From positions 30,072,001-30,136,000 of the forward strand of contig NC_086097.1 of NCBI RefSeq assembly GCF_963921235.1: a stretch of DNA of 64,000 bases, written 5' to 3'. The stretch comes from Mobula hypostoma. Lineage: Eukaryota. Position numbers and translations under genes: made by a program. Below are positions 2,867-54,389 of this stretch, one piece after another. The notes under the pieces were generated by a model, which saw only the letters and a program-made list of their open reading frames with translations, ran no database searches and was not told where the DNA came from. Numbering within the stretch: the first letter of the stretch is position 1; each line of letters starts with the position of its first letter.

Positions 2867-3028
2867 ATGAGGAAATCCGAAAATCCCTCCCCCTCCCACT
2901 TTCAAATCTCTTACTAACTCTTCTTTCAGTTAGTCCTGACGAAGGGTCTCGGCCCAAAACGTCAACTGTACCTCTTCCTAGAGATGCTTCTGGCCTGCTG
3001 CGTTCACCAGAAACTTTTATGTGTGTTG
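2867..3028 (+). mobile_element. PLE-terminus mini-insertion with decayed hammerhead (2932-2967)
   Basis: Matches the PLE 3' end at 26340-26490; GAAA changed to AAAA; imperfect TSD ctaaaaa(a)gcca(t/c)c at 2853-2866 and 3029-3041. Confidence 0.85.
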
Positions 3029-3653
3029 CTAAAAAGCCACCTCATAGGCATTCAACAAATTCCCTCTCCTGCAATCCGACACCAACCTGATTTTTCTAAT
3101 CTCCTTGCACATTGAAGTCCCCCATTACAATTGTGACACTACCCCTACTACATGCCTTTTCCAGCTCCCTTTGCTATCTCAACCCCACATCTTGGCTACT
3201 ATTTAGAGGCCTACATATGATTCCCATAATGGTTTTTTACCCTTGCAATTTCTTAACTCCACCCACAAAGATTCAACATTCTTTGACCCTATGTCACCTC
3301 TTTCTAAAGATGCAATTACACCTCTTAGCAACAGAACCATATCAATGCCCATGCCTTCCTGCCTATGGTCGATATTAGGTCTATCCTTTGATGTTAAGCT
3401 CCTATCTTCTGCCACGACTCAGTGATGCTCACGTCATACCGACCAATCTGTAACTGTGCCACAAGTTCGTTGACCTTATACCAAATGCTACGCACATTTA
3501 AATACAGCACCTTCAGTCCTACAACCTTTTGAATTTTCCCTCTGTGGTACAATTTCTTTGCTCTCTCTGCATTTGTACCTAATCATTGGCTTGTCCTTCC
3601 TTACATTCAAGTTACACCCATTATCTACTTGTAAACCTGCTGGCTCATCCTCA

Positions 3654-3845
3654 AACAACAGGAATTCTGCAGATGCTGGAAATTCAAGCAACACAGATCA
3701 AAGTTGCTGGTGAACGCAGTAGGCCAGGCAGCATCTCTAGGAAGAGGTGCAATCGACGTTTCAGGTCTCGGCCTGAAACGTTGACTGCACTTCTTCCTAG
3801 AGATGCTGCCTGGCCTGCTGCGTTCACCAGCAACTTTGATGTGTG
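3654..3845. mobile_element. Fold-back (palindromic) PLE-derived mini-element
   Basis: 74-bp inverted arms 3692-3765 and 3772-3845; exact 13-bp TSD tggctcatcctca at 3641-3653 and 3846-3858. Confidence 0.92.
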
Positions 3846-4415
3846 TGGCTCATCCTCAGCTCTGTCATACTGGTTCCCATTCCCCAGTCATGTTAGTTTA
3901 AACCACTCCCTACAGCTCTAGTAAACCTGCCCGCAAAGATATTGGTCCCCGTCAGATTCAAGTGCAACCTGTTCCTTTTATACAGGTCACACCTGCCCCA
4001 GAAGAGGTCCCAATTATCCAGAAATCTGACTCCCTGCCACCTGCTCCAATTCTTCAGGCCGAGCGGCATACTCCTGTTTGTATTTTCTTATGTTCTTGTA
4101 CTAAAGGACAATGGGACAGGGTGAGAGATGAGAGTGGAGTAATTACACAATGCAAGAGTTATTTTAGATACAAAGAGTTCATTCAAACTATATCCACATT
4201 TCTCTCCTTGAGTTCAAGTCTAACTGGTTCTTAGTGCATACGTTCTTCTGTATTTATTTATTTTCCTGTAAATACCTGCAAGAAAATGAATCCCAAAGCA
4301 GTACGTAGCAATGTATATGTAGTTTAATAATAAACTTTGACTTTGATTTCAAGTCAGTGCCTGGTCTCTCCTTTCCCTTTCTCCGCAACATCCTTAACTT
4401 CCTCAGGTTAAAGTT

Positions 4416-18698: not shown

Positions 18699-21262
18699 TT
18701 GGAGTATTGTTTTAGGCCCCATATCTAAGAAAGGATGTGCTGGCATTGGAGAGGGTTCCAAGGGTGGTTACAAAAATTATTCCAGGATTGAAAGGCTTAT
18801 CACATGAGGAGCGTTTGATGGCTCTAGAAGTGTATTCACTAGAATTTAGAAAGAATAAGAATTTAGAAGATCTTCTTGAAACCTATCGAATGTTTAAAGG
18901 CCTCATTAGAGTGGATGTGGAGAGGATGTTTCCTATGATGGGGTAATCTAGGACCAGAGGACACAGCCTCAGAATAGAAGGACATCCATTTAGAAAGGAG
19001 ATGATGGGGACTTACTTTAGCCGGAGAGTGGCAAATCTGTACAATTCATTGTCACAGGAAGCTGTGGAGGCCAAGGCATTGGGTATATTTAAGGCTGAGG
19101 TTAAAAGATTCATGAGTGGCATAGGCATGGAGGGTTATGGGAAGAAGGTAGGAGATTGGGACTCAGAGAGAATTGGATCAGCCATGATGAAATGGAGGAG
19201 CAGATCAATGAGCTAAATGGCTGAATTCTGCTCCTATATTATATAGTCTTCTGGTGATTCTGATAGAAATGATAAAGTAACAAAGTGACTCTCTGCAACA
19301 GGAACTCTTCTAGGTAGCAGTAGGGCATATGAAAACACAGTAGGATAGTGACTGTTAGTGTAGGTATGAGATGTGGAGTGCAAGCGTAAAGTGGCAGCCA
19401 ATGAGGGTGCTGAGGCAAACAGAGGATGATATGGATGTAGTGGTGGTGGCGGATGGTATGACAAAATTATTAAAAGAGTTTGGTCCTTTCTAGAACATGT
19501 TATCTTTTATCAATCTGAGCAATTCAGTTTTCTGTAATAAATATTTGATTTTAAATCTCATGATATTTTTTCCATTTTGAATCAATACAGTGGCTAACAA
19601 AATTGGCTACACAGATAGATAGGCATAAGCTGTTTGAATTAATTAAATTTGCTTCAGGCCTTAAAGAGCATTTTATCATGGGGTTAGAACATAGAACACT
19701 ACAGCAGGGAACATACCCTTCAGCTCACCATGTTGTGCTGATCTTTTAACTTATTCTAAAAACAATCTAACACTTCCCTCCTACATAGCCCTCCATTTTC
19801 TATCATCTATGTGCCTATATAAGACCTTCTTAATGTCTTTGCCACCCACCACCCCTGGCAAACTGTTCTATGCACCTACCTCTCTGTGTTAGATACTTAT
19901 CTTTGACATCGCCCTCCTTATATTTTCCTCCACTCGCCTTAAAATTATGCCCCCTATTAGCTATATTGGATTGATGAGAAGAAATTGAATTTCAATGGTA
20001 CCTTTTAGAAGCTCTGCATCTTACAAGTACTTAAGGACTAAGTATGTTCTGAAGTTTACTCACTGTAAACTTGATTTGTGGACAGAAGCCACTACAAAGA
20101 GTATTTAAATAATCATGTTGGTCAAGAAATAATTAATGGCAAGATCTGTCTAAACACTATGTTCCTGTTTCTATTTATTTCTCTGACTTCGTTTTGCATT
20201 TTTAATGCAGCTCAAACTTCCAACCAATACACAGCAGTGAATCAGGAGTATAGATATGATTCATCAAGGGTGAAACACTAAGCTTAAAATCTGGATTACA
20301 ACATCTGAATTGTGTAATCAGAACTATGAAGTCAGATTTTAAAATGTTTGGTTCTACAAATATTACATACAGTGCCTATAAAAAGTATTCACCCAACTTG
20401 GAAGTTTTCATCTTCTATTGCTTTACAACATTAAATCACAGTGGATTTAATTTGACTTTTTTGACACTGATTAACAGAAAAAGACTCTTACAAAGTAAAT
20501 ACAGGTCTCTGCAAAATAATCTAAATTAATTACAAATGTAAAATACAAAATAATTGATTGCACAAGTATTCACCCCCCTTTAAAATGACACACCAAATCT
20601 TCACTGGTGCAACCAATTGGTTTTAGGAGTCACGTAATTAGTTAAGGTGTTCTACCTATATGCAAACCTGTGTGCATTCAAGGTGTTTCAACTGATGGTA
20701 GTAAAAATACACCCATATCTGGAAGGTCCAACTATTCGCAAGTCAGCATTGGGGCAAAAACTACACCATGAAGACAAAAGAACACTCTAAGCAACTGCAA
20801 GAAAAGCTTAATGAAAAATACAAGTCAAGAGATGGATACAAGAAAATTTCCAAGTCACTGAATATTCCTTGGAGTACAGTTAAGTCAATCAAGAAATGGA
20901 AAGAATATGGCAGAGCTGTGAAACTGCCTAGAGCAGGCCGTTCTCAAAATCTGAGTGACCATGCAAGAAGGGGACTAGTGTGGGAAGCCACCAATAGACC
21001 TATGACAACTCTAGAGGAGTTATAAGCTTTGGTGGCTGAGATGGGAGAGACTGCACATGCAAAAACTGTTGCCCAAGTGCTTCACCAGTTGCAGTTTTAT
21101 GGGAGAACAGCAAAAAGAAAGCCACTGTTAAAAAAAATTCTCAAGAAATCTTGGCTAGAGTTTGCCAGAAAGCATGTGGGAGACTCTGAAGTCAGCTGGA
21201 AGGTGGTTCTATGGTCTGATGAAACCAAAATTGAGCTTTTTGGCCATTAGACTAAATGCTAT

Positions 21263-22170
21263 CTGGAGACAACTTATCTACTGATGCCTATTATAATCCC
21301 ACAAATTCTCACTGCTACCTGAGTATACTATACCTCTTCCTACCCTGTTACTCATAAAAACGCTATCCCTTTCTGTCAATTCCCCCGTCTCCGCCACATC
21401 TGTTCTCAGGATGAGGCTTTTCATTCCAAAAATGAAGGAGATGTCGTCCTCCTTCAAAGAAAGGGGCTTCCCCTCCTCCACCATCAACCTCAACCACATC
21501 TCTTCCCTTTCACGGAAGCAGAATGGGTACTACACCTGCCCTACACCTCCTCCCTCATTACAATTCAGGACCCCAAACAGTCCTTCCAGGTGAGGTGACA
21601 CCTCACCTGTGAGGCTGTTGGGTTATACTGTGCTCCCAGTGTGGCATCCTGTATACTGCTGAGACCTGACATAGATTGGGAGACAGTTTCACCGAGCACC
21701 TATGCTCTATCTGCCAGAAAAAGTGGGAATTCCCAGTGGCTACTGATTTTAATTCCACTTCCCATTCTCATTCTGATATGGCTATCTATGGCCTCCTCTG
21801 CTGTCACAATGAGGCTATGCTCAAATTGGAACAGTGCCTTAAACTCCTCCCCCTTTTTTCTTCCATAACCTTCTGTCCTCTCTTTAGATTCCCCCTTCTC
21901 CAGCCCTGTATCTCTTTCACCAACCAATCGCTTCCCAGCTCTTTACTTCACCCCTTCCCCCTCCCGGTTTCACCCATCACCTTGTGTTTTGCCCTTCCCT
22001 CCCCCACCTTTTAACTCTACTCCTCATCTTTTTTTCTCCAGTCCTGCTGAAGAGTCTTGGTCTGAAACGTCGACTTTACTCTTTTCCAGAGATGCTGCCT
22101 GGCCTGCTGAGTTCCTCCTGCATTGTGTGTGTGTTGCTTGGATTTCCATCATCTGCAGATTTTCTGTTTG
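21263..22170 (+). mobile_element. Decayed 5'-truncated Penelope-like element inside the Tc1
   Basis: Homologous to 25058-26492; TSD aga(c/g)taaatgctat at 21249-21262 and 22171-22184. Confidence 0.9.
22040..22075 (+). ncRNA. Hammerhead ribozyme motif, variant core (CTGCTGA)
   Basis: AGTC CTGCTGA AGA GTCTTGG TCT GAAA CG TC GACT. Confidence 0.6.
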
Positions 22171-24962: not shown

Positions 24963-25057
24963 GTGGGAAATCATCAAATATTCCTGTTCAGGATTACTAC
25001 AGCTAAAATCCACAGTCATAGCCATGGGTACTTCAGTAAGCAACATCATTTTAAGAT

Positions 25058-26095
25058 TCCTGCACGCATGCAGAACTCGTTGACTTTATTAACTTTGCCT
25101 CCAACTTTCACCCTGCCCTCAAGTTTACTTGGTCCATTTCCAACACCTCCCTCCCCTTTCTAGATCTTTCTGTCTCTGTCTCTGGAGACAGCTTATCCAC
25201 TGATGTCTACTATAAGCCTACTGACTCTCACAGCTATCTGGACTATTCCTCTTCTCACCCTGTCTCTTGTAAAAACGCCATCCCCTTCTCGCAATTCCTC
25301 CATCTCCGCCGCATCTGCTCTCAGGATGAGGCTTTTCATTCTAGGACGAGGGAGCTGTCTTCCTTTTTTAAAGAAAGGGGCTTCCCTTCCTCCACTATCA
25401 ACTCTGCTCTTAAACGTATCTCCCCCATTTCACGTACATCTGCTCTCACTCCATCCTCCCACCACCCCACTAGGAATAGGGTTCCCCTGGTCCTCACCTA
25501 CCACCCCACCAGCCTCCGGGTCCAACATATTATTCTCCGTAACTTCCGCCACCTCCAACGGGATCCCACCACTAAGCACATCTTTCCCTCCCCGCCCCCT
25601 GCATTCCGCAGGGATCGCTCCCTACACAACTCCCTTGTCCATTCGTCCCCCCCATCCCTCCCCACTGATCTCCCTCCTGGCACTTATCCATGTAAGCGGA
25701 ACAAGTGCTACACATGCCCTTACACTTCCTCCCTTACCACCATTCAGGGCCCCAAACAGTCCTTCCAGGTGAGGCATCACTTCACCTGTGAGTCGACTGG
25801 GGTGATATACTGCGTCCGGTGCTCCCGATGTGGCCTTTTATATATTGGTGAGACCCGACGCAGACTGGGAGACCGCTTTGCTGAACATCTACGCTCTGTC
25901 CGCCAGAGAAGGCAGGATCTCCCAGTGGCCACACATTTTAATTCCACATCCCATTCCCATTCTGACATGTCTGTCCACGGCCTCCTCTACTGTGGAGATG
26001 AAGCCACACTCAGGTTGGAGGAACAACACCTTATATTCCGTCTGGGTAGCCTCAAACCTGATGGCATGAACATCGACTTCTCTAACTTCCGCTAA
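25058..26095 (+). CDS. Partial PLE ORF (RT C-terminus plus GIY-YIG endonuclease); open frame but no start codon (5'-truncated)
   Basis: Manual translation reads without a stop: NFHPALKFTW, LPFLDL, VYYKPTDSHSYL, SSHP, CKRNKCYTC, GVIYCVRCSRCGLLYIGET...GMN. Confidence 0.8.
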   Translation, partial: SCTHAELVDFINFASNFHPALKFTWSISNTSLPFLDLSVSVSGDSLSTDVYYKPTDSHSYLDYSSSHPVSCKNAIPFSQFLHLRRICSQDEAFHSRTRELSSFFKERGFPSSTINSALKRISPISRTSALTPSSHHPTRNRVPLVLTYHPTSLRVQHIILRNFRHLQRDPTTKHIFPSPPPAFRRDRSLHNSLVHSSPPSLPTDLPPGTYPCKRNKCYTCPYTSSLTTIQGPKQSFQVRHHFTCESTGVIYCVRCSRCGLLYIGETRRRLGDRFAEHLRSVRQRRQDLPVATHFNSTSHSHSDMSVHGLLYCGDEATLRLEEQHLIFRLGSLKPDGMNIDFSNFR

Positions 26096-26390
26096 GGCCC
26101 CACCTCCCCCTCATACCCCATCTGTTACTCATTTTTATGCACACATTCTTTCTCTCACTCTCCTTTTTCTCCCTCTGTCCCTCTGAATATACCTCTTGCC
26201 CATCCTCTGGGTCACCCCCCCCCTTGTCTTTCTTCCCGGACCTCCTGTCCCATGATCCTCTCGTATCCCCTTTTGCCTATCACCTGTCCAGCTCTCGGCT
26301 CTATCCCTCCCCCTCCTGTCTTCTCCTATCATTTTGCATCTCCCCCTCCCCCTCCAACTTTCAAATTCCTTACTCACTCTTCCTTCAGTT

Positions 26391-26426
26391 AGTCCTGACG
26401 AAGGGTCTCGGCCTGAAACGTCGACT
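26391..26426 (+). ncRNA. Minimal type I hammerhead ribozyme, intact core
   Basis: AGTC CTGACGA AGG GTCTCGG CCT GAAA CG TC/GACT; helix I AGTC:GACT; palindromic ACGT helix III; predicted cut after 26422. Confidence 0.85.
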
Positions 26427-28435
26427 GCACCTCTTCCTATAGATGCTGCTTGGCCTGCTGCGTTCACCAGCAACTTTGATGTATGTTGCTTGTCATTTTA
26501 AGATGTTTAACAAATCTATCAATATTCAGAATTGAAATTTCCCAGACTGCATATTCAGGCCGCAAAGGCAGTTCCTCTTTAAGAAAACGGAAATGGGGAT
26601 GTTGCGCAGGTTTACAAGTATGATTGAAATGCCAAGGCTTTAGACCCCCACTCCTGACTATCCTGCCGGCAAATGTACAGACTCTGGAAAATAAAAATGG
26701 AGAATTCAGAATAAGATTGCTGTACTAGAGGGACATCATAGACTGCTGTGTACTTTGCTTCACTGAAACATGGCTATCCCCTACCATTTTGGACATAATG
26801 CTGCAGCTCATTGGCTTCACCATTCTGCACAAAGCCAGAACAGCTCAGTCTTTTAAAGGCAGAGGAGGTGGAGAATGCTTTATGATTAACTCATCATGGT
26901 GCATAAACATGGCAGCTCTGTGTCAATCCTGCTAATCCAACCTGGAACATCTAGTGGCTGGATGTCATCCTTTTTATCTGCTGAAGAAGTTTTCTGCCAT
27001 CCTGGTAGCATTATACATTCTACCAAAGGCCAACACGAGGCAGGCAGTAGAAGAGATGATCTCTGCAATCAGCAGGCACAAAACAGCGCATGCTGATGCC
27101 TTCCTCATCATTGCGGGAGATTTCAACAACGCCAGGTTGAAGAAGTCTCTGAACAACTGCCAACATAACACCTGTGGAATCAGAGAAGCCAACACACTTG
27201 ACCACTGTTATACCACCATCAAAAACACTTTCTTTGCCATCCCACACCTACACTTCAGAAAGTCCGTTCACCTGTCTCTACTTATACTCCCAGCATTGAG
27301 GCAGAGACTAAAGACTGCAGCACCAGTGCTGAGGACCAGGTAGGTATGGTCAAGGGAGGCAGAGGAGCGCCTACAGGACTGTTTTGAGTCGGTGAATCGG
27401 ACAATATTCAGGGATTCATCTTCAAATCTAAACAAATACGCCACATTTGTCACCAACTTCATCAATACCTACGTGGATGAGTGTGTGCCTTCGAGAACAT
27501 ACTGGATATACCCAAACAAAAGCCATGGATGAACCAGGAGATTCATAGTCTGGTAAGGGCTAGATCTGTGGCATTCAAGACTAGTGATCCAGAGAAAATC
27601 AAGATGTTCAGATACAACCTAGAGAAGGCTATTTTAAGAGCAAAACAAAACAATTGCAATTGCAATTAGAGACAGAATCGAATGCACATAGGCTCTAGCA
27701 GGGTTTGCAGGTCATTACTTTCCACAAAGAGAAGCTTAACATCATGAATGGCTGTGATACTTCACTCAACACAATTATGCACACTTTGAAAGGGAGAATA
27801 AAACTAATTTGTGCGAATCCCTGGTGACTCCGTGATCTCTGTCTTGGAAACTGACACCAAACATCTTTCGAGAGGGGGAACCTCCCTGCAAGGCATCAGG
27901 CCTGATGGTGTACCTGGTAGGGCTCTGAAAACCTCTGCCGACCAATTGGCAGGAGGTTTGGGACTCCTTCAATCTCTCACTGCTGTCATCAAGAGGTTCC
28001 CACCTTCTTCAAAAGGGTGACAATTGTTCCAGTGCCCAAGAAGAACAGGATGAATTGCCTCAACGACTGTCGCCTGGTGGCACTCACATCGACAGTGATG
28101 ACGTGCTTTAAGGTGGTAGTCATGGCTAGAATAAACTCCTGCCTAAGCAGGGACCTGGACCCGCTGCAATTTACCACAATAGGTCTACAGCAGATTCAGT
28201 CTCACTGGCTCTCCACTTAGTCTTGGATCATCTAGACAATGGTAGCACCTACGTTAGGCTGCTGTTTATTTTCATTAATTACAGCTCAGCATTCAACGCA
28301 ATCATACCCTCAGTTCTAATCAACAAACTTCAAAATCTGGGCCTCTGTACGTCCCTCTGCACTGGAACCTTGATTTCCTCACCGGGAGATGAGCATCTGC
28401 GTGGTTTGAGAATAACATCGCCTCCTCATTGACAT

Positions 28436-42459: not shown

Positions 42460-44510
42460 AAAATCATAAAGAAGGAGAAGATGGAATACAAAGGTAATCT
42501 AGCCAATAATATTAAAGAGAGAACCAAAATCTCTACATATAAAATACAAATGAAAGACTAGGGTTGATATCGGACCACTAGAAAATGACGCTGGAGGGGT
42601 AGTAATGGGTTATAATGAAATAGCATACTGAATAAGTATTTTGCATCAGTCTTCACTGTGGAAGACATTAGCAACTGCTGGAAGTTTAAGAGTGTAAAAT
42701 TGCCATTACTAGAAAGAAGGTTCTTTGGAAACTGAAAATCTGAAGGTAGATAAGTTACCTGGACCAGATGGTGTACACCCCAGGGTTCTGAAAGATGTGA
42801 AGAGTTTGTGGAGGCATTACTAGTGATCTTTCAAGAAATCAATAGATTCCAGAGGAATAGAAAATTGCAAATGTCACACCACTCTTCAAGAAGGGAGAGA
42901 GGCAGAAGAAAGATAATTACAGGCCAGTTAGTCTGACCTCAATGGTCGGAAAATGTTAGAGTCAACTGTTAAGGATGCAGTTTCAGGGTACTTGGGAGAC
43001 ACATGATAAAATAGGCTATAGTCAACATGGTTTCCTTAAAAGGAAATCTTGCCTGAGAAATCTGTTGAAATTCTTTGAAGAAATATCAAGTGGGATAGAC
43101 AAACGAGAATCAGTTGATGTTGGGTAGTTGGATTTTCAGAAGGCCTTTGACAAAGTGCCACACATGAAGCTGCTTTACAAGTTAAGAGCCCATGGTATTA
43201 TAGCATTGATAGAGCATTGGATGGTTGGCAGGAAAAAAGAGAATGGTAATAAAGGGAACCTTTTCTGGTCAGCTGCCAGTGATTATTGATGTTCCACAAG
43301 GGTCTGTGTTGGGACAATTTCTTTTTACGCCATATGCAAATGATTTGGATGATGGAATTATGAGGAAATCAGCGGACGATGGAATTATGAGGAAATCTGC
43401 AGATGCTGGAATTTCAAGCAACCCACATAAAAATTGCTGGTGAACACAGCAGGCCAGGCAGCATCTACAGGAAGAAGTACAGTCGACATTTCAGGCCGAG
43501 ACCCTTCATCAGGACTAACTGAAAGAAGAGATAGTAAGAGATTTGAAAGGGATTTGAGGATGATGGAATTGATGACTTTGTGGCCAAGTTTTCAGGCGAT
43601 ACGAAGATAGTTGGAAAGGCATGTCAGTTTGAGGAAGTAGGGAGGCTAGAGAAGGACAGACAGATTAGGAGAATGGGCAAAGATGTAGTAGATGAAATAC
43701 AGTGTCAGAAAGTGTTTGGTCATGCATTTTGGTAGAAGATATAAAAGCATAGACTATTTTCTAAATGGAGAGAAAATTTAAAAATCTGAGGTAAAACGGG
43801 ATTTGGGAATCCTCATGCAGGATTCTCTAAAGGTTAATTTGCAGGTTGAGTCTGTGGTGAGGAAGGCAATTGAATGTTAGCATTCATTTTGAGAGGATTA
43901 GAATACAAAAGCAAGGATGTAATACTGAGGCTTTATAAATCACTCATTAAACCTCACCTGGAGTATAGTGAGCAGTTTTGGTTCCCCTTACCTAGGAAAG
44001 AATTATGCTGACATTGGAGAGGGTTCAAAAGAGGTTCTCAAAAATGATTCCTGGATGAACAGCTTGTCATATGAAGAGCTTTTGATGCCTCTGGGTCTCT
44101 ATTCACTGTCATTCAGAAGAATAAGGGGTGGCCTCATTGAAACCTATCAAATGTTGCAAGGCCTCAATGGAGTGGATGTGGAGATGTTTTCTATGGTGGG
44201 TGAGTCTAAGACCAGAGGACAAAGCCTCAGAATAGAAGGGCGTCCCTTTAGAACAGAGATGAGGAGGAATTTATTCAGCCAGAGAATTGCGAATCTGTGG
44301 AATTTGTCACAATTGGGGGGGGGGGAGGCTGTCATTTGGTACACTTAAGGGATAGGTTGGTAGATTCTTGTTTAGTCAGGGCATGAAAGGATACAAGGAG
44401 AAGGCAGGAGATTGGGGCTGAGAGACAAAATAGATCAACCATTATGAAATAGTGGAGCAGACTTGATGGGCCAAATAGCCTAATTCTGCTCCTATATCTT
44501 ATGGTCTTAG
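42460..44510 (+). mobile_element. Decayed CR1 ORF2 3' half
   Basis: [20 protein letters not shown] remnant, tcttatggtctta tail. Confidence 0.85.
43360..43557 (-). mobile_element. PLE-terminus mini-insertion with hammerhead (43481-43516, minus strand)
   Basis: Minus strand: AGTC CTGATGA AGG GTCTCGG CCT GAAA TG TC GACT; TSD ggatgatggaatt at 43347-43359 and 43558-43570. Confidence 0.88.
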
Positions 44511-45340: not shown

Positions 45341-46942
45341 CCTCCCACCCACAGATTAACTGCTAGTCTCCCTTCTCAGACTCTTGTCAAGTAATATGTT
45401 TTTGGACAGCAAGTATGTGTTTTTAGCAAAAAAGACAGAGGAGCAGATTGAAGGCAGATTCCAGGGTTATTGCCAAGGTGATTTAACTTCCCTAGTACTG
45501 ATTGTCACCATCTTTTTGCAAAAGGTTTAGGTGGGGCAGAATTTGTTAGTTATAATACATAGATCAACTGACTAGAGGAGAGGCCACACTGGATCTGGTA
45601 TTAAGTAATGAACCTGGTCAGGTGACAGATCTCTTGGTGGGTATTTTGGAGACACTGACTACAACTCCCTGTCTTTTACCATAGTCTTGCACAGGGATAG
45701 AAGCAGGAGGACAAGAAGTGACTTGATAAAGGTGTACAAAATAAGAGGCATGGATAGAGTTAACAGCTAGAGATATTTTCCACAGGGTGAAAATTGCTAA
45801 TGTGATTTTTTAAAACAGAGTGGTAGGTGCATGGAATGCACTGCAGGGGGTGGTAGGAAAGGCATAAATATTTGGGACATTTAAGAAACTCTTAGATAGG
45901 CACATGGGTGATACAAAAATCTACGGCTATATGGGAGGGAAGGGATTGATTGATCTTGGACTAGGTTAAAAGCAGCACAATATCGTGAGCCAAAGGGACT
46001 GTACTGTGCTGCACTGTTCCATGTTCTATGGAAGAGAAGTTCAATGGGAAATGAAGGGCATGATTACCCTGCACCTTCCACTATTTCGGGATGGCCTAAA
46101 GTGCGTCACAGTGCAAAGTAGGAACCCAGGAGTGAAATTACACACATTATAACTACAGAGAATAGAAGACTCTGCGTAGTATATCACAGGCAAATCGCTT
46201 CTCACCATCAGTAGTATCTACAGGAGGTGCTACTTAAGAAGGCAATGTTCAATATCAAAGAAATCCACCATCTGGACCATGCCATCGAACAGAAGCCTAA
46301 AGTCTTACACCACCAGGTTCGGGAACACCTACTTCCCTTCAACCATTCAGTTCCTGAACCAGCTGGTCCAACCTTTATCACTACAGTTTAGAAACTATGT
46401 AACCACTTTAATTATTTTGAACTGAAATGGACTTTGCTTTTGTTTTGTTCTACTTGTATTGGTATTGGTATTATTATCACATGTACCAAGATACAGTGAA
46501 AAGCTTGTCCTGCATACTGTTCATACAGGTCACATCATTACATAAACATTTTATACAGCACATTTCACTGTCATGTTTCGATTAGATAAATAATCTGAAT
46601 CAGAATCTGATAGTGCATTGAGGTAAACTAACAGCAATGCAGAATGAAGTGTAAAAGCTGCAGAGAAAGCACAGTGCACGTAAACAATACGGTGCAAGGT
46701 CATAATAAGGAAGATTGTGAGGTCAAGAGTCCATTCTGAGTCTGATAACAGCAAGAAAGAAGTTGTATTTGAACCTGCTTTTGTATCTTCTGCCTGATGG
46801 GAGAGGGAGTAAAGAAAATGTCCGGATGGGTAGCTTATTTAATTATGCTGGCTGCTTTACTGAGGCAGCAAGAAGTATCAACAGAGTCCATGAAGATAAG
46901 GCTCTAGGTTCTTTCTAGTAAAAATGGTGTATAATTTATGTT

Positions 46943-47160
46943 ACACACATCAAAGTTGCTGGTGAACGCAGCAGGCCAGGCAGCGTCTCTAGGAAGAGGT
47001 ACAGTCGACGTTTCAGGCCGAGACTGAGTCCTGACGAAGGGTCTCGGCCTGAAACGTCGACTGTACCTCTTCCTAGAGACGCTGCCTGGCTTGCTGCGTT
47101 CACCAGCAATTTTGATGAGTGTTGCTTGAATTTCCAGCATCTGCAGAATTCCTGTTGTTT
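46943..47160 (+). mobile_element. Fold-back PLE-derived mini-element containing an intact hammerhead
   Basis: 82-bp arms 46943-47024 and 47041-47122; TSD gtataatttatgtt at 46929-46942 and 47163-47176. Confidence 0.93.
47027..47062 (+). ncRNA. Minimal type I hammerhead ribozyme, intact core
   Basis: AGTC CTGACGA AGG GTCTCGG CCT GAAA CG TC/GACT, identical to 26391-26426. Confidence 0.8.
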
Positions 47161-47454
47161 GCGTATAATTTATGTTTATGGTTTCCTTGTGAGTGCAGTT
47201 TATCTGATGCTATGTGCCTGTGATGCTGCTGCAAGTAAGTTTATCACTATACCCGGGCACACATGGACTTGCGCAGATGACAATAAGATCCGCTAAGCTC
47301 CCACAAGTTATCCACATAATCATCCCAAGGACTCTCTGCCTTACTTATAAACAGACCATGTGATATTTGACATCCACCTTTGAGTGCAGAAAGGAACACG
47401 GTTTAATGTCTCAACTGTAATACTTCCTGGCAATGTGATGGACCCAAAGAGATT

Positions 47455-47592: not shown

Positions 47593-48092
47593 GTTGCCCA
47601 GTGATGAACCTCTTGTTAAACCAGATGCTTGGTAGGATAGAAATTTCAGCAAAACAAACTGTAAAAGGTAAATCTAATGGTAGAATTGAAATCTAATACA
47701 GATGACTGGATGGTAAATTGATTACAACAATAACAGAGCAAAGACTAAAAATATAATCTTGCCTTCTCTGATAGAGAATGCTATGTCAAAGCAGTATTTC
47801 AAAGACGCTGCACGGATTGTCAGCATTAAGTTTGTGCTCCAACAGACCAGGGTAGGCAAAGTCAGGGAACGGATAACAGTGTGACTGGTAGGCAGCAGGC
47901 AGATCAGGGGTAGAAGGCTGCTGCTCAGAATGGTCAGAGGAGAAATAGGTCCCATAAGAGCAGAATTAGGCCATTTAGCCCATTGAGGCTGCTCCACCAC
48001 TTCATCATGATTAATCCTTTTTCCCTCTCAGCCCCAATCTCCTGCCTTCTCCTTGTATCCCTTCATGCGCTGACCAATCAAGAATCTAAATA

Positions 48093-48311
48093 CAAACAAC
48101 AGGAATTCTGCTGATGCTGGAAATTCAAGCAACACACATAAAAGTTGCTGGTGAATGCAGCAGGCCAGGCAGCATCTCTAGGAAGAGGTGCAGTCGACGT
48201 TTCAGGCCGACACAGTCCTGACGAAGGGTCTCGGCCTGAAACATCGACTGCACCTCTTCCTAGAGATGCTGCCTGGCCTGCTGCGTTCACCAGCAACTTT
48301 TATGTGTGTTG
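48093..48311. mobile_element. Fold-back PLE-derived mini-element with hammerhead (48214-48249; ACGT changed to ACAT)
   Basis: 85-bp arms 48129-48213 and 48228-48312; TSD caagaatctaaata at 48079-48092 and 48312-48325. Confidence 0.93.
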
Positions 48312-48344
48312 CAAGAATCTAAATATGTGTCTTTAAATATTCTA

Positions 48345-51300
48345 GATAATTTTTTTTTCTTCGGCAGTTGAATGGGGCACAACTGCGCAAATGCGTGAAA
48401 GTCAGACCATGAGGCAGCGGGAGTGTTTAAAAGCCAGAAGATTAACGGAGCGGGCGACGTTGTAGCGGGCGAAGGAGTAGAGGGAGACAGAGTAGGAAGG
48501 CTTTGGCTCGAGAGGCTTCGGCGAGCTTCACTCCAAGTGAGGTAAGGCCGGGTAAGTTCCTTTAATTGATTTAATTACCTTAAGAGTAGGTAATGGAGGC
48601 AGCAGTTAGGGCAGTTCAGTGCTCCGTTTGCAGTATGTGGGAAGTCAGGGCAAGCACAATTGTCCCTGATGACTACACCTGTAAAAGGTGCATCCAGCTG
48701 CAGCTCCTGACAAACCGAGTTAGGGAACTGCAGCTGGAGATGGATGAACTACGGATCATTCGGCAGGCAGAGGCAGAAATAAACAGGAGTTACAGGGAGA
48801 TAGTTACCCCTAAGAGTCAGGAGACAGGTAGCTGGGTGACTGTCAGGAGAGGGAAGGGGAATAGACAGAATGAGCAGAGCACCCCTTTGGCCGTTCCCAC
48901 CAATAATAAGTATATGGGGACGACCTACCAGGGACAAGTTGCAGTGGTTGCATCTCTGGCACCGAGTCGGGACCCTCAGCTCAGAAGGGAAGGAGAGAAA
49001 AGAGGAGAGCAGTAGTGATAGAGGATTCGATAGTTAGGGGGACAGATAAGAGGTTCTGTGGAAGAGATCGAGAATCCCATATGGTCTGTTGCCTCCCTGG
49101 TGCCAGGGTCTGCGATATCTCGGATTGAGTTCTCAGTATTCTCAAGAGGGAGGGTGAGCAGCTGAATGTCGTGGTCCATGTAGGGACCAATGACGTGGGT
49201 AGGAAGAGTGAGGAGGTCCTGAAAGGTGAGTTTAGGGAGTTAGGCGCCAAGTTAGAGGACAAGACCTCCAGGATAGCAATCTCAGGATTGCTACCAGTGC
49301 CACGTGCAGGCGGGTTCAAAAATAGTAAGATGGCGCAGATCAACACGTGGCTGAAGACATGGTGCAGGAGGGAGGGCTTCAGATTTATAGATAATTGGGC
49401 AGTTTTCCAGGGAAGGTGGGACCTGTTCCAGTGGGACGATTAACATCTGAACTGGAGGGGGACAAATATTCTTACAGGTAGGTTTGCTAGAGAGGCTCCT
49501 GTGGATTTAAACTAGATACGAGGGGGGAGGGGAACCAGAGAGTAGGAACAGGTGTAGGGGAGAAGAAAGAAAAATAGTAAAGTTATTTGCACCGTTAGTG
49601 ATAAATAGAGAGTAAGAGGTGGAAAATTTCTTAAATGCATTTATTTTAATGCTAGGAGCATTATAAGAAAGGTCAATGGGCTTAAAGCATGGATGTCCAA
49701 TCCCTATACACCTCCATTCCCCATGAAAAAGGCCTCAAAGCCCTCCACTACTTTCTGGATAATAGACCTCACCAGTTCCCCACCACCACTACCCTCCTCC
49801 GGTTGGCAGAACTGGTTCTCACACTCAATAATTTCTCTTTTGGCTCTTCCCACTTTCTTCAGACCAAGGGTGTAGCTATAGGAACTCGCATGGTCCCTAG
49901 CTATGCCTGCCTCTTCATTGGTTATGTGGAACAGTCTGTGCTCCAAACCTATTCTGGTACTACTCCCCAACTTTTCCTTTGGTACACTGACGACTACATT
50001 GGTGCTGCTTCCTGCACCCATGCTGAGCTCGTCAATTTCATCGACTTTACTTCTAACTTCCACCCAGCCCTCAAATTCACTTGGTCTATCTCAGACACTT
50101 CTCTCCCCCTTTCTTGATCTCTCGGTCTCCATCTCTGGAGACAGACTGTCCACTGACATCTCCTACAAGCCCACTGACTCTCATAACTACCTCAACTATA
50201 CCTCTTCCCACCCTGCCATATGCAAAAGTGCCATTCCCTATTCCCAGTTCATCCGTCTCCGCCACATCTGCTCCAAGGATGAGGTTTTCGGTTCCAGGAC
50301 ATCTCAAATGTCTTCTTTCTTTAAGGATCGTGGTTTCCCTTCTGCTATCATCAGTGATGCCCTCACCTGCATCTCCTCCATTTCCCGCACTTCGGCTCTC
50401 ACCCCTCCTCCCGCCACCACAACAGGGACAGAGTTCCCCTTGTCCTCACCTACCACCCCACTAGCCTCCGGATCGAACACATTATCCTCCGCAACTTCCG
50501 CCACCTTCAACAGGACCCCACCACTAAGCACATCTTTCCCTCTCCACCCCTCTCCGCCTTCCGCAGGGATCGGTCCCTCCGCAACTCCCTGGTCCACATG
50601 TCCCTCCCCACGGATCTCCCACCTGGCACTTATCCCTGTAAGCGCAAGTGCTACACCTGTCCCTACACCTCCTCCCTTGCCACCATTCAGGACCCCAAAC
50701 AGTACTTCCAAGTGAGGCAACACTTCACTTGTGAGTCTGTTGGGGTCATCTATTGCATTCGGTGCTCCCAGTGCGGCCTCCTCTATATCGGTGAAACCCG
50801 ACGCAGATTGGGGGACCGCTTCGTCAAGCACCTCCGCTCCGTCCGCCAAAACAGACAGGATCTCCCAGTAGCCACCCACTTCAACTCTGCTTCCCACTCC
50901 CATTCAGACATGTCCATACATGGCCTCCTCTACTGCCATGATGAGGCTAAACTCAGGTTGGAGGAGCAACACCTCATATACTGTCTAGGTAGACTCCAGC
51001 CCTTTGGTATGAACAGAGAATTCTCCAACTTCCGGTAATTCCCTCCCCCTCCCTTCTCCTATCCCTATGTCACTCTGTCCCCTCCCTCAGCTGCCTACCA
51101 CCTCCCCATGGTCCCGCCTCCTTCTACTACCCATTGCATTTTCCCCTATTCTTTCTTCACCTTTCCTGCCTATCACCTCCCTGCCTCCCTTCCCCCACCC
51201 CTTTATCTTTCCCCTTACTGGTTTTTCACCTGGAACCTACCAGCCTTCCCCTTCCCACCCTCCCCCCACCTTCTTTATAGGGCCTCTGTCCCTTCCCCCT

Positions 51301-54288
51301 ACAGTCCTGACAAAGGGTTCTGGCCCGAAACATCGACTCATCGTTTCCACGGATGCTGCCCGACCTGCTGAGTTCCTCCAGCGTGTTGTGAGTGTTGCTT
51401 TGACCCCAGCATCTGCAGATTATTTTGTGTTTAAAGCATGGATTGATACCTGGAAGTATGGTGTGGTAGCTATTAGTGAAACATGGTTGCAGGAGGGGTG
51501 TGATTGGCAACTAAATATTCCTGGATTTCAGTGCTTCAGGTGTGATAGAATTGGAGGGACAAGAGGGGGAGGTGTTGCATTGCTTGTCAGAGAAAATATT
51601 TTAGCAGTGCTCTGGCAGGACAGATTAGAGGGCTCATCTAGGGAGGCTATTTGGGTGGAAATGAGGAATGGGAAAGGTGTAGTAACACTTATAGGGGTGT
51701 ATTATAGACCACCTAATGGGGAGCGAGAAGTGGAAGAGCAAATTTGTAAGGAGATAGCAGATACTTGTAGTAAGCACAAGGTTGTCATTGTGGGGGATTC
51801 TAATTTTCCACACATAGACTGGGAAGCCCATACTGTAAAAGGGCTGGATAGTTTGGAGTTTGTAAAATGTGTGCAGGTTAGTTTTTCGCAGCAATACATA
51901 GAGGTACCAACTAGAGAAGGGGCAGTGTTGGATCTCCTGTTAGGGAATGAGATAGGTCAGGTGACGGAGGTATGTGTTGGGGAGCACTTTGGGTCCAGTG
52001 ATCACAATGCTGTTAGTTTCAACATAATAATGGAGAAGGATAGGTCTGGACCCAGGATTGATATTTTTGATTGGAGAAAAGCTAACTCTGAGGAGATGTG
52101 AAAGGATTTAGAAGGACTGGATTCAGACAAATTGTTTTATGGGAAGGATGTAATAGAGAAATGGAGGTCATTTAAAGGTGAAATTTTGAGGGTACAGAAT
52201 CTTTATGTTCCTGTTAGGTTGAAAGGAAAGGTTAAAAGTTTGAGAGAGCCATGGTTTTCAAGGGATATTGGAAACTTGGTTCAGAAAAAGAGAGATATCT
52301 ACAATAAATATAGGCAACATGGAGTAAATGAGGTGTTCGAGGAATATAAAGAATGTAAAAAGAATCTTAAGAAAGAAATTAGAAAAGCTAAAAGAAGATA
52401 CAAGGTTGCTTTGGCAAGTAAGGTGAAAATAAATCCAAAGGGTTTCTGCAGTTATATTAATAGCGAAAGGATAGTGAGGGATAAAATTGATCCTTTAGAG
52501 AATCAGAGTGGACAGCTATGTGTGGAACCAAAAGAAATGGGGGAGATTTTGAACAATTTCTTTTCTTCGGTATTCACTAAGGAGAAGGATATTGAATTGT
52601 GTAAGGTAAGGGAAACAGGTAGGGAAGTTATGGAAACTATGATGATTAAAGAAGAGGAAGTACTGGTGCTTTTAAGGAATATAAAAGTGGATAAGTCTCC
52701 GGGTCCTGACAGGATATTCCCCAGGACCTTGAGGGAAGTTAGTGTAGAAATAGCAGGGGCTCTGACAGAAATATTTCAAATGTCATTAGAAACAGGGATG
52801 GTGCCGGAGGATTGGCGCATTACTCATGTTGTTCCATTGTTTAAAAAAGGTTCTAAGAGTAAACCCAGCAACTATCGGCCTGTGAGTTTGACGTCAGTGG
52901 TGGGTAAATTGACGAAAAGTATTCTTAGAGATGGTATATATAATTAACTGGATAGACAGGGTCTGATTAGGAACAGTCAACATGGATTTGTGTGTGGAAG
53001 GTCATGTATGACAAATCTTACTGAATTTTTTGAAAAGGTTACTAGGAAAGTTGACGAGGCAAAGCGGTGGATGTTGTCTATATGGACTTCCGTAAGGCCT
53101 TTGACAAGGTTCCACACGGAAGGTTAGTTAGGAAGGTTCAATCGTTAGGTATTAATATTGAAGTAGTAAAATGGATTCAGCAGTGGCTGGATGGGAGACA
53201 CTAGAGAGTAGTGGTGGATAACTGTGTGTCAGATTGGAGGCCGGTGACTAGTGGTGTGCCTCAGGGGTCTGTACTGGGTCCAATGTTGTTTGTCATATAT
53301 ATTAATGATCTGGATGATGGGGTGGTAAACTGGATTAGTAAGTATGCAGATGGTACTAAGAAAGGTGGCTTGTGGATAATGAAGCAGGTTTTCAAAGCTT
53401 GCAGAGAGATTTAGGCCAGTTAGAAGAGTGGGCTGAAAGATGACAGATGGAGTATAATGCTGATAAATGTGAGGTACTACATTTTGGTAGGACTAAACAA
53501 AATAGGACATACATGGTAAATGGTAGGGTATTGAAGGATGCAGTAGAACAGAGGGATCTAGGAATAATGGTGCATAGTTCCCTGAAGCTGGAATCTCATG
53601 TGGATAGGGTGGTGAAGAAAGCTTTTGGTATGCTGGCCTTTATAAATCAGAGCATTGAGTATAGGAGTTGGGATGTAATGTTAAAATTGTACAAGGCATT
53701 GGTAAGGCCAAATTTGGAATATTGTGTACAGTTCTGGTCACCGAATTATAGGAAAGATGTCAACAAAATAGAGAGAGTACAGAGAAGATTTACTAGAATG
53801 TTTCCTGGATTTCAGCACCTAAGTTACAGAGAAAGGTTGAACAAGTTAGGTCTTTATTCTTTGGAGCGTAGAAGGTTGAGGGGGGACTTGATAGAGGTGT
53901 TTAAAATTATCAGGGGGATAGATAGAGTTGACGTGGATATGCTTTTTCCATTGAGAGTAGGGGAGATTCAAACAAGAGGACATGAGTTGAGAGTTAGGGG
54001 CAAAAGTTTAGGGGTAACATGAGGGGGAACTTCTTTACTCAGAGAGTGGTAGCTGTGTGGAACGAGCTTCCAGCAGAAGTGGTAGAGGCAGGTTCGATAT
54101 GGTCATTTAAAGTAAAATTGGATAGCTATATGGACAGGAAGGAAATGGAGGGTTATGGGCTGTGGGCTGTATGCGGGTCAGTGGGACTAGGTAAGAGTAA
54201 GCATTCGGCACGGGGTAGAAGGGCCAAGATGGCCTGCTTCCATGCTGTAATTGTTATATTGTTATATGGTTATTATATGGTTATAGGT
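48345..54288 (+). mobile_element. Near full-length CR1 LINE interrupted by a PLE
   Basis: 5' UTR; ORF1 from 48593 (CSVCSMWE, VHVGTND); ORF2 [22 protein letters not shown]; (GTTATATG)-type tail. Confidence 0.93.
49695..51430 (+). mobile_element. Penelope-like element (RT core through GIY-YIG), frameshifted; decayed hammerhead at 51303-51338
   Basis: DVQSLYTSIPH, QTKGVAIG, YTDD, GVIYCIRC...YIGET; exact 13-bp TSD ttaaagcatggat at 49682-49694 and 51431-51443. Confidence 0.95.
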
Positions 54289-54389
54289 AAAGACTTGGCC
54301 TCCACAGCTGCCCGTGATAATGAATTCCACAGATTCAACATGCTCTAACTAAAGAAGTTCCTCATCTCCAGCCTAAAAGGATGCTCTAC

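What the first reader, a model, noticed from the sequence alone, without database searches (positions are those of the whole stretch)
46929..47176. Fold-back mini-retroelement whose loop is the hammerhead catalytic strand
A 218-bp insertion with a 14-16-bp TSD. The 82-bp arms pair at 79 of 82 positions around a 16-nt loop (tgagtcctgacgaagg) that contains CUGACGA. One arm carries a further ~36-nt tail, like the 3' extension known for Penelope. Both arms share a variant absent from other copies (cagcgtctct / agagacgctg), so both were probably copied from one template in one event. It looks like a MITE but is retro-derived. If transcribed, the hairpin would compete with ribozyme folding and form dsRNA.
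Basis: partly seen in the sequence, partly recalled or inferred. Interest (0 to 1): 0.8.

Follow-up and report, generated by a model that had tools for sequence, protein, structure and literature searches.

The report
Mirror-image Penelope retroelement stump insertion
This 220-base hairpin-shaped insert is the tail end of a Penelope-like jumping gene laid down in that family's usual mirror-image form, likely in a single insertion event; at least 4,800 similar ones lie in this genome, so it is an ordinary example of a published pattern.

Summary
A 220-bp insert (46943-47162) lies between two exact 14-bp target-site duplications. Its 82-nt inverted arms match at 79 of 82 positions around a 16-nt loop that contains CUGACGA. 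Only the right arm carries a ~40-nt extension.

The insert is not an element of its own. It is an extremely 5'-truncated insertion of an abundant Penelope-like element (PLE: reverse transcriptase plus GIY-YIG endonuclease) in the published PLE form: an inverted 5'-truncated copy head-to-head with a direct copy, a 30-40-bp "tail" on one side, one TSD and a minimal hammerhead motif.

- The window holds two more such pairs.
- In 464 kb around the window, 8 of 21 family insertions are pairs.
- Exact-pattern searches find 4,801 junctions of this kind genome-wide; the reversed-pattern control finds 0.
- Junction positions differ between copies, so a loop holding the catalytic strand is incidental.
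- The "private" shared variant occurs in 13 of 80 copies. Family-wide, however, paired arms share minor alleles 40 times against 7.4 expected.
- In 52 of 52 coordinate-ordered fold-backs, exactly one arm has the tail.

The scan has found this pattern before, in this genome and in others. Low novelty.

The parts
46929..46942 (.). Left copy of the target-site duplication, GTATAATTTATGTT
   Evidence: exact 14-bp repeat, AT-rich.
46943..47024 (-). Inverted, tail-less arm. It is family positions 1455-1536 of the PLE 3' end, read on the minus strand. It lacks CUGACGA and the tail.
   Evidence: 96.3% identity to reference copy L031 over 82 nt. Its outer end at 1536 lies in the usual tail-less range of 1530-1546.
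47025..47026 (.). Two filler bases (tg) at the head-to-head junction that match neither arm
   Evidence: the left arm stops at 1455, the right arm starts at 1441, and 2 nt are unassigned.
47027..47162 (+). Direct arm with tail, family positions 1441-1575 plus 1 nt. Its first 14 nt (47027-47040) have no partner and, with the 2 filler bases, form the 16-nt loop.
   Evidence: 97.0% identity over 135 nt.
47027..47062 (+). Minimal type-I hammerhead motif. Helix I 5' strand AGUC at 47027-47030; CUGACGA at 47031-47037; helix II GG/CC around a 7-nt loop at 47039-47049, closed in this family by a G.U pair, with one extra A at 47038; GAAAC at 47051-47055; palindromic ACGU at 47054-47057; predicted cleavage after C47058; helix I 3' strand GACU at 47059-47062.
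   Evidence: Sequence read directly. The core is conserved in diverged PLE families of this genome. The motif definition is taken from PMC4209133 (passages). No Rfam hammerhead hit. Cleavage was not tested.
47127..47162 (+). The 'tail', a ~35-nt 3' extension (family 1541-1575, plus 1 nt) present on this arm only
   Evidence: The tail is conserved across PLE families.
47163..47176 (.). Right copy of the target-site duplication

Best explanation
This is an extremely 5'-truncated, non-functional insertion of a Penelope-like retrotransposon's last ~135 bases in head-to-head twin form, and it was likely made in one integration event in which both nicked strands of the target primed reverse transcription of the element's RNA 3' end. 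Shown: the arms are the 3' end of an abundant element with reverse transcriptase and GIY-YIG endonuclease. One 14-bp AT-rich TSD encloses both arms. One arm ends at the terminal site (with tail) and the other ~39 nt further in (tail-less). The same build recurs thousands of times with different junctions. Inferred: one strand primed at the terminal start site and the other at the internal start site, probably on one RNA or one ribonucleoprotein. Both cDNAs stopped within or just upstream of the hammerhead. One nascent cDNA then switched onto the other; here the switch left 2 filler bases, elsewhere it used microhomology. This left 14 unpaired bases that happen to hold CUGACGA. The identity of the insert I hold at about 0.95. 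The confidence figure below is for the two-strand, two-start-site mechanism.
For: Family identity:
- The reference copy L031 carries an ORF with YIDN, a CCHH linker and GIY-YIG (Pfam PF01541, E = 2.3e-4).
- Longer copies have open frames of 900-961 aa with RVT_1 (E = 6.9e-5) and GIY-YIG (E = 2.1e-4).
- L117 has an upstream partial copy (pLTR) that ends with the tail.
- The protein search gave 121,934 first-look candidates.

Recurrence:
- Three pairs lie in the window.
- In 464 kb, 8 of 21 family insertions are pairs.
- Genome-wide there are 1,562 + 3,239 exact-pattern junctions, against 0 for the controls.

Single event:
- A TSD of 9 bp or more flanks the whole pair in 37 of 41 loci (median 14 bp). 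Mismatched-locus controls give a median of 5 and a maximum of 10.
- The same holds for 11 of 11 further loci, each with a different TSD.
- Arms share minor alleles 40 times, against 7.4 +/- 2.8 (maximum 16) in 500 partner shuffles.
- Arm-to-arm identity exceeds the mean identity to other copies in 36 of 41 pairs.

Two start sites, used once each:
- Exactly one tailed and one tail-less arm is found in 41 of 41 and 11 of 11 coordinate-ordered fold-backs, in 29 of 30 loci, and in 7 of 8 pairs of the 464-kb sample.
- Solo copies split 6 tailed, 6 tail-less and 1 intermediate.

Literature:
- The Anolis PLE protein cleaves and extends both strands, starts at two adjacent internal sites that delimit the tail, and prefers AT-rich targets (PMC11167929, passages and section 3 part 2).
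- The inverted copy and the one-sided tail are described in PMC8557442 and PMC3846280 (passages).
Against: - No experiment or RNA data bear on this genome; no RNA run is on record.
- PMC3846280 prefers self-priming to explain palindromic junctions.
- Two pairs have tails on both arms: C1:30023034-30025359 and L084.
- At this locus alone, arm-to-arm identity (78 of 81) is not exceptional, because one arm matches an unrelated copy at 100%.
- The Pfam hits lie just under the curated cut-offs.
Confidence: 0.55

Rival explanations
1. Self-priming (snap-back) of a single cDNA. One target strand primes reverse transcription. The nascent cDNA folds back on itself near the hammerhead and copies itself, which makes the second arm. 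The product is then joined to the other side of the target.
For: PMC3846280 (passages) infers self-priming from palindromes at inverted junctions. The commonest junction here, CCCTTCGTC|CTGACGAAGGG (11 of the first 50 places listed), lies exactly at the element's own mini-palindrome GTC-CT-GAC, as snap-back or a 3-nt microhomology switch would predict. All 11 have different TSDs, so they are independent events. Shared minor alleles of paired arms fit this model too.
Against: A copied-back arm should end where the first arm began, which gives two tailed or two tail-less ends. Instead, 52 of 52 coordinate-ordered fold-backs have one of each. At this locus the junction has 2 filler bases and no microhomology.
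Confidence: 0.28
2. The fold-back is a non-autonomous element in its own right, MITE-like or retrozyme-like, that is copied as a unit.
For: There are thousands of copies of about 180-235 bp with TSDs. Some junction types recur. A 2026 preprint (10.64898/2026.07.22.740005, abstract only) derives vertebrate retrozymes from PLE pLTRs.
Against: Junction coordinates, fillers and loop lengths differ between copies. The arms of one pair share the subfamily variants of the long elements. The outer end of the inverted arm always sits at the internal RT start site, next to the TSD, and not at a transcript-dependent point. Pairs with arms of 385 to about 1,500 bp have the same build. There are no tandem monomers.
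Confidence: 0.05
3. Two independent insertions that landed head to head; or an inverted duplication made after insertion; or an assembly artefact.
For: The family is very dense here, with 21 insertions in 464 kb, so chance neighbours do occur.
Against: A single TSD flanks the pair and there is none between the arms. The arms abut within 2 nt. The one-tailed rule and the thousands of like cases cannot come from chance adjacency. The flanks are unique sequence.
Confidence: 0.02

Closest known systems
Insertion units of endonuclease-bearing Penelope-like elements: pLTR, adjoining inverted 5'-truncated copy, one-sided 30-40-bp tail (Arkhipova et al. 2013, PMC3846280; Craig et al. 2021, PMC8557442; passages read)
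   Same: Reverse transcriptase plus C-terminal GIY-YIG endonuclease. Strong 5' truncation. An inverted copy head-to-head at the 5' side. A tail of about 35 nt on one side only. One TSD around the whole unit. A hammerhead motif in the terminal repeat.
   Different: Here both arms are cut down to 82-136 nt, so no ORF or pLTR body remains and the unit looks like a hairpin. TSDs are about 13-15 bp, against the 8-10 bp quoted for the rotifer examples.
Anolis carolinensis Poseidon (PAc) in-vitro integration (Mob DNA 2024, PMC11167929; passages and section 3 part 2 read)
   Same: AT-rich target. Two RT start sites about 35 nt apart that define the tail. Both target strands are cleaved and extended. 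The hammerhead lies about 65-100 nt upstream of the start sites.
   Different: In PAc the ORF starts inside the hammerhead; in this family the hammerhead lies in the 3' UTR/pLTR, upstream of the open frame. The strict pairing of one site per strand was not reported in vitro.
Minimal dimeric hammerheads of metazoan PLEs (Cervera and de la Pena 2014, PMC4209133; passages read)
   Same: CUGANGA ... GAAA ... GUC core. An extra base after A9. A short helix II. No helix III, but a palindromic ACGU that could pair between two copies.
   Different: In this fold-back a single complete motif faces an antisense partial copy, so the predicted fold is an 82-bp stem rather than a ribozyme. No Rfam model matches.
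Twin priming of LINE-1
   Same: Both target strands prime reverse transcription in one event, which gives an inversion inside one TSD.
   Different: In L1 the second primer anneals further upstream on the RNA, so the two parts are different segments. Here both arms are the same 3'-terminal segment, which gives a palindrome.
MITEs and Foldback DNA transposons
   Same: A small, TSD-flanked unit with long terminal inverted repeats.
   Different: The arms are a retroelement's 3' end. The ends are unequal (tail). The junction varies from copy to copy. The TSD is long.

Membership tests
Endonuclease-bearing Penelope-like elements (PLE) | One ORF with reverse transcriptase followed by a C-terminal GIY-YIG endonuclease | tested here: met
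   YIDD/YIDN, the CCHH linker and GIY..YIG are visible in the translations. Pfam RVT_1 E = 6.9e-5 (23.1 bits, cut-off 29.6). GIY-YIG E = 2.1-2.3e-4 (21.8-21.9 bits, cut-off 22.6). Both hits lie just under the curated cut-offs. Atlas look-alikes are animal RVT_1/DUF8422 clusters (a lead only).
Endonuclease-bearing Penelope-like elements (PLE) | Pseudo-LTR from a partial tandem copy | tested here: met
   in L117 a 244-bp partial copy (family 1332-1575) precedes the 3.5-kb body.
Endonuclease-bearing Penelope-like elements (PLE) | Heavy 5' truncation, with an inverted 5'-truncated copy adjoining at the 5' side | tested here: met
   In 464 kb, 8 of 21 insertions are head-to-head pairs. Arm lengths run from 30 to about 1,500 nt.
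Endonuclease-bearing Penelope-like elements (PLE) | An optional 30-40-bp tail at one end of the unit | tested here: met
   The tail is family 1541-1575 (35 nt). One tailed arm is found in 41 of 41 and 11 of 11 fold-backs, in 29 of 30 and in 7 of 8.
Endonuclease-bearing Penelope-like elements (PLE) | RT groups with PLE/telomerase RTs in a phylogeny | not tested
   No tree was built and no named PLE reference sequences were at hand.
Minimal PLE hammerhead (min-HHR) | Conserved core CUGANGA, GAAA and the cleavage triplet GUC, with helices I and II | tested here: met
   Read from the sequence. In diverged families of this genome the core is largely kept: U4 25 of 25, G5 27 of 27, A9 29 of 29, A13 and A14 30 of 30. 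A6 is kept in only 17 of 27 and G12 in 20 of 30; these are old decayed copies.
Minimal PLE hammerhead (min-HHR) | Palindromic 15.2-16.2 that allows a dimer; an extra base between 9 and 10.1; a G10.1-C11.1 pair | tested here: inconclusive
   The ACGU palindrome and the extra A are present. The closing pair is G.U in this family and G-C in 20 of 30 diverged copies. No covariation test was run.
Minimal PLE hammerhead (min-HHR) | Match to a curated hammerhead covariance model | tested here: not met
   No Rfam hammerhead hit at gathering score over the window, nor at E up to 10 on 46900-47200. The Rfam models presumably expect a helix III (my reading, not tested).
Minimal PLE hammerhead (min-HHR) | Self-cleavage | not testable with these tools
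   This needs a transcription and cleavage assay.
MITE / Foldback DNA transposon | Terminal inverted repeats shared with a transposase-encoding DNA element; equal ends | tested here: not met
   The arms align to the 3' UTR of an element with RT and GIY-YIG endonuclease. The ends are unequal by about 35-40 nt.
Non-LTR retrozyme | Tandem hammerhead-bearing monomers that can give circular RNA | tested here: not met
   No direct repeat other than the TSD. There is only one complete hammerhead motif.
microRNA precursors (Rfam MIR6136, MIR1883, mir-789 and others) | Score at or above the family's gathering threshold | tested here: not met
   47-63 bits against thresholds of 82-128, on both strands. 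This is the generic response of those models to any long perfect hairpin.

The most novel reading that the evidence does not exclude
Each fold-back is the footprint of one Penelope ribonucleoprotein that copies a single RNA onto both nicked target strands. It starts once at the terminal site and once at the internal site about 35 nt upstream. The two cDNAs are then joined by a template switch that favours the hammerhead core's own mini-palindrome (GTC-CT-GAC). The strict one-tailed rule (52 of 52) and the 4,801 or more junctions in this genome would then be a natural record from which the still unsolved PLE integration mechanism could be read.
Probability: 0.35. Interest if true: 0.5.

Novelty: already known. 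Interest (0 to 1): 0.2.

Why it matters
For this locus, little. It is one decayed, truncated copy in repeat-rich DNA, and its build is published for PLEs. Two wider points follow from it. (1) Annotation: thousands of 180-235-bp palindromes with TSDs could be mistaken for MITEs or microRNA-like hairpins, but here they are retroelement stumps. (2) Mechanism: the regularity seen across copies gives a cheap genomic test of how PLEs integrate. That regularity consists of one tailed and one tail-less arm, shared variants between arms, and junction hot spots at microhomology. The papers I read describe integration as still unresolved. If these near-perfect hairpins are transcribed, they would also be candidate sources of double-stranded RNA; that was not tested.

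Tried and rejected
- **Rfam.** No family reached its gathering score in the window. With relaxed settings on 46900-47200 there was no hammerhead hit, only sub-threshold microRNA-hairpin look-alikes on both strands. I set these aside as generic hairpin matches.
- **RNA evidence.** The look-up of sequencing runs listed no RNA holder. The only rows were contigs with small shares of the words. No reads were laid, so nothing can be said on transcription, small RNAs or editing.
- **A constant 'CTGAG' before TCCTGACGA at junctions.** It appeared in 24 of 112 motif hits and first looked like a spliced or capped RNA 5' end. It is selection bias of the query, which contained that filler. In the coordinate-ordered list it occurs in 3 of 50 places. 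No CTGAG|GT donor exists in the element. Rejected.
- **A transcription start or RT barrier at family position 1441.** Arms often begin there: 20 of 41 loci have an arm starting at 1440-1444 and none starts further upstream, and 6 of 30 loci begin there. The sequence also resembles an initiator and follows a pyrimidine tract ending in CAG/TTAG. This was left untested; the pattern search itself limits how far arms can reach.
- **Arm-to-arm identity as a test at this single locus.** It does not discriminate: 96.3% between the arms against up to 100% to an unrelated copy.
- **Gene context.** ORFs of 110 aa or more in 38-56 kb are retroelement frames or unassigned open frames (not searched); no host exon was recognised.
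- **Earlier notes of this scan for the neighbourhood.** None.

Full report
**1. The observation**

The sequence is as described.
- An exact 14-bp repeat, GTATAATTTATGTT, lies at 46929-46942 and 47163-47176. It brackets a 220-bp insert, 46943-47162.
- The arms 46943-47024 and 47041-47122 are complementary at 79 of 82 positions.
- The arms enclose a 16-nt loop, tgagtcctgacgaagg, with CUGACGA at 47031-47037.
- The right arm continues for 40 nt, to 47162.
- As RNA the insert folds into one stem of -176.2 kcal/mol (z = -21.5; 0 of 200 shuffles fold as well).
- The right arm alone has no unusual stability (-35.2 kcal/mol, z = 0.31).

**2. What the arms are**

A BLAST of the right arm against the window gave 12 HSPs, the query's own match and its inverted left arm among them.

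Two further head-to-head pairs have the same build:
- 48093-48311, with the TSD CAAGAATCTAAATA.
- 3654-3845, with the TSD TGGCTCATCCTCA.

Solo copies continue upstream into common sequence.

In the window's own genome (3.48 Gb, 200 contigs) the 138-nt arm has at least 2,830 first-look candidates.

Copies are 5'-truncated at scattered points.

A 1.58-kb copy, L031, carries an open frame ending in YIDN, a CCHH linker and GIY..YIG (Pfam GIY-YIG E = 2.3e-4).

Longer copies have open frames of 900-961 aa with RVT_1 (E = 6.9e-5) and, in L116 in a shifted frame, GIY-YIG (E = 2.1e-4). All of these Pfam scores lie just below the curated cut-offs.

L117 has a 244-bp partial upstream copy that ends in the tail, immediately before the 3.5-kb body. 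That is a pseudo-LTR.

A protein search with the RT end gave 121,934 first-look candidates.

The family is therefore an abundant endonuclease-bearing Penelope-like element (PLE).

On the coordinates of L031:
- the ORF stops near 1149;
- the hammerhead motif spans 1441-1476;
- copies end either near 1540 ("tail-less") or near 1575 ("tailed").

The finding's left arm is 1455-1536 inverted. The right arm is 1441-1575. Two bases (tg) lie between them.

**3. How common and how regular the build is**

*The 464-kb sample.* I took 464 kb centred on the window. I counted 21 insertions of this family, defined as at least 86% identity with the 3' end present. Three short internal fragments were dropped.
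- Eight of the 21 are head-to-head pairs.
- Seven of those eight have one tailed and one tail-less arm.
- The 13 solo copies split 6 tailed, 6 tail-less and 1 intermediate.

*Exact-pattern searches.* Searches for the inverted 14-mers flanking the junction found 1,562 places with a gap of 0-30 nt and 3,239 places with a gap of 31-60 nt. The reversed-pattern controls found 0.

*First coordinate-ordered sample.* I fetched the first 40 places of the first list, taken in coordinate order, and added this locus.
- All 41 have exactly one tailed arm (outer end at 1563 or beyond) and one tail-less arm (outer end 1494-1556). Two of the 41 (L122, L123) are one duplicated locus.
- 37 of 41 are flanked by an exact repeat of 9 bp or more (median 14). 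For mismatched flanks the median is 5 and the maximum 10.
- The arm that reaches further 5', and so carries the loop, is the tail-less one 23 times, the tailed one 16 times, with the rest ties (my count). There is no polarity.

*Junction-similarity sample.* The 30 loci picked by similarity to this locus's junction include the window's own locus. Of these, 29 have one tailed arm and 1 (L084) has two.

**4. The junction**

Inner start points differ from copy to copy. They run from 1440 to 1462, and much further upstream in long-armed pairs. Fillers of 0-6 nt, or overlaps of 1-3 nt, occur.

A loop that holds CUGACGA is therefore one outcome among many:
- The pair at 3654-3845 has no CUGACGA at all.
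- In the pair at 48093-48311 the CUGACGA belongs to the tail-less arm.

Some junctions recur. Eleven of the first 50 places with a 31-60-nt gap share CCCTTCGTC|CTGACGAAGGG. All 11 have different TSDs of 12-18 bp and one tailed arm, so they are independent events. This junction sits on the element's own mini-palindrome GTC-CT-GAC (1442-1449). That is what a 3-nt microhomology switch or a snap-back would use.

**5. One template, one event**

- The shared C at 1494 occurs in 13 of 80 copies.
- The arms (78 of 81 over the columns compared, which start at position 1456) are no closer to each other than one of them is to an unrelated copy, which reaches 100%.

*Across 41 pairs.* Seven pairs come from the 464-kb sample, 27 and 7. 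The window's duplicate loci L001 and L074 and one pair with a 30-nt arm were left out.
- Arm-to-arm identity exceeds the mean identity to other copies in 36 of 41 pairs.
- The arms share alleles of under 20% frequency 40 times, against 7.4 +/- 2.8 (maximum 16) in 500 shuffles of partners.

With the single enclosing TSD, this supports one event from one template or one source.

**6. Comparison with the literature**

- Arkhipova et al. 2013 (PMC3846280, passages) describe a PLE bounded by pLTRs with an adjacent inverted pLTR. [quoted passage not shown] They infer self-priming from palindromic junctions.
- Craig et al. 2021 (PMC8557442, passages) give the same scheme for all EN+ PLEs: high 5' truncation, an inverted 5'-truncated copy, and a 30-40-bp tail often at one end only.
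- The 2024 Mobile DNA paper (PMC11167929, passages and section 3 part 2) shows that an Anolis PLE protein cleaves and extends both target strands, starts reverse transcription at two adjacent internal sites that delimit the tail, and prefers AT-rich targets.
- Cervera and de la Pena 2014 (PMC4209133, passages) define the minimal, probably dimeric hammerhead of PLE repeats. The motif here has their core, the extra base after A9 and the palindromic ACGU.
- No Rfam model matches the motif, and cleavage is untested.
- Earlier notes of this scan report the same pattern in this genome and in others.

**7. Mechanism**

*Shown:* the family, the build, the single TSD, the one-tailed rule, the shared variants and the variable junctions.

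*Inferred:* both nicked strands primed on the element's RNA 3' end, one at the terminal site and one at the internal site. The cDNAs stopped within or just upstream of the hammerhead. One cDNA then switched onto the other.

I prefer this to simple snap-back because snap-back predicts equal ends. The junction hot spot fits either model.

What stops so many cDNAs near 1441 is unexplained. In one search, 10 of 21 insertions start between 1388 and 1455. An RNA 5' end, a structural barrier or the pyrimidine tract upstream are all possible.

**8. Consequences**

If the locus is transcribed, the 82-bp stem would bury helix I, helix II, GAAAC and the cleavage site. The single complete hammerhead would then not fold. 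This is a prediction only. No RNA run is on record.

**9. Verdict**

The feature is real and correctly read, but it is ordinary: a stump-sized example of the published PLE insertion architecture. The modestly new points are quantitative: the number of such fold-backs, the strictness of the one-tailed rule and the microhomology hot spot in the hammerhead core.

Noticed in passing
window 48079-48325: A second fold-back of the same family, insert 48093-48311. The tailed arm is on the minus strand (48093-48213) and the tail-less arm on the plus strand. The TSD is CAAGAATCTAAATA. Here the CUGACGA loop belongs to the tail-less arm.
   Followed up: yes
window 3641-3858: A third fold-back, insert 3654-3845, with TSD TGGCTCATCCTCA. 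Its junction lies inside helix II, so it has no CUGACGA at all.
   Followed up: yes
window 25057-26492; 2885-3030; 43390-43549: Solo copies of the same PLE family: a 1.44-kb tail-less copy with the end of the RT and the endonuclease, a 146-nt tail-less copy, and a 160-nt copy with part of the tail.
   Followed up: partly
window 21262-22168 and 49903-51419: Copies of more diverged PLE families, 74-79% identical to the reference. They keep the hammerhead block and the tail region better than the rest of the 3' UTR.
   Followed up: partly
window 51013-54348: Long open frames with LINE-like endonuclease and reverse-transcriptase features lie directly after the diverged PLE copy. The whole neighbourhood is retroelement-rich, and no host exon was recognised.
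   Followed up: no
G000 C1:15897493-15897552 and 10 further places (L158-L168): The same junction, CCCTTCGTC|CTGACGAAGGG, occurs in 11 of the first 50 places with a 31-60-nt gap. All 11 have different TSDs. The hot spot sits at the hammerhead core's own mini-palindrome GTC-CT-GAC.
   Followed up: yes
family positions 1386-1442 (e.g. window 26336-26392, upstream of the hammerhead in the solo copy): A pyrimidine-rich tract ending in CAG/TTAG lies directly before helix I. It looks like a 3' splice site and overlaps initiator-like TCAGTT/TTAGTCC. PMC4209133 notes that the D. virilis Penelope intron ends at the 5' end of helix I. No matching donor was found.
   Followed up: partly
G000 C1:30023034-30025359 (464-kb sample) and L084: Rare pairs with tails on both arms. 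The first has long arms of 966 and 1,366 nt.
   Followed up: no
L122 and L123 (G000 C1:13257903 and 13261860): Two fold-backs with the same junction lie 4 kb apart and lack a clear TSD (5 and 7 bp). This is probably one insertion copied by a later segmental duplication.
   Followed up: no
G000 C1:30295838-30296046 (464-kb sample): One inverted arm starts at family position 1473, which is exactly the predicted hammerhead cleavage site. My samples could not test that claim.
   Followed up: no
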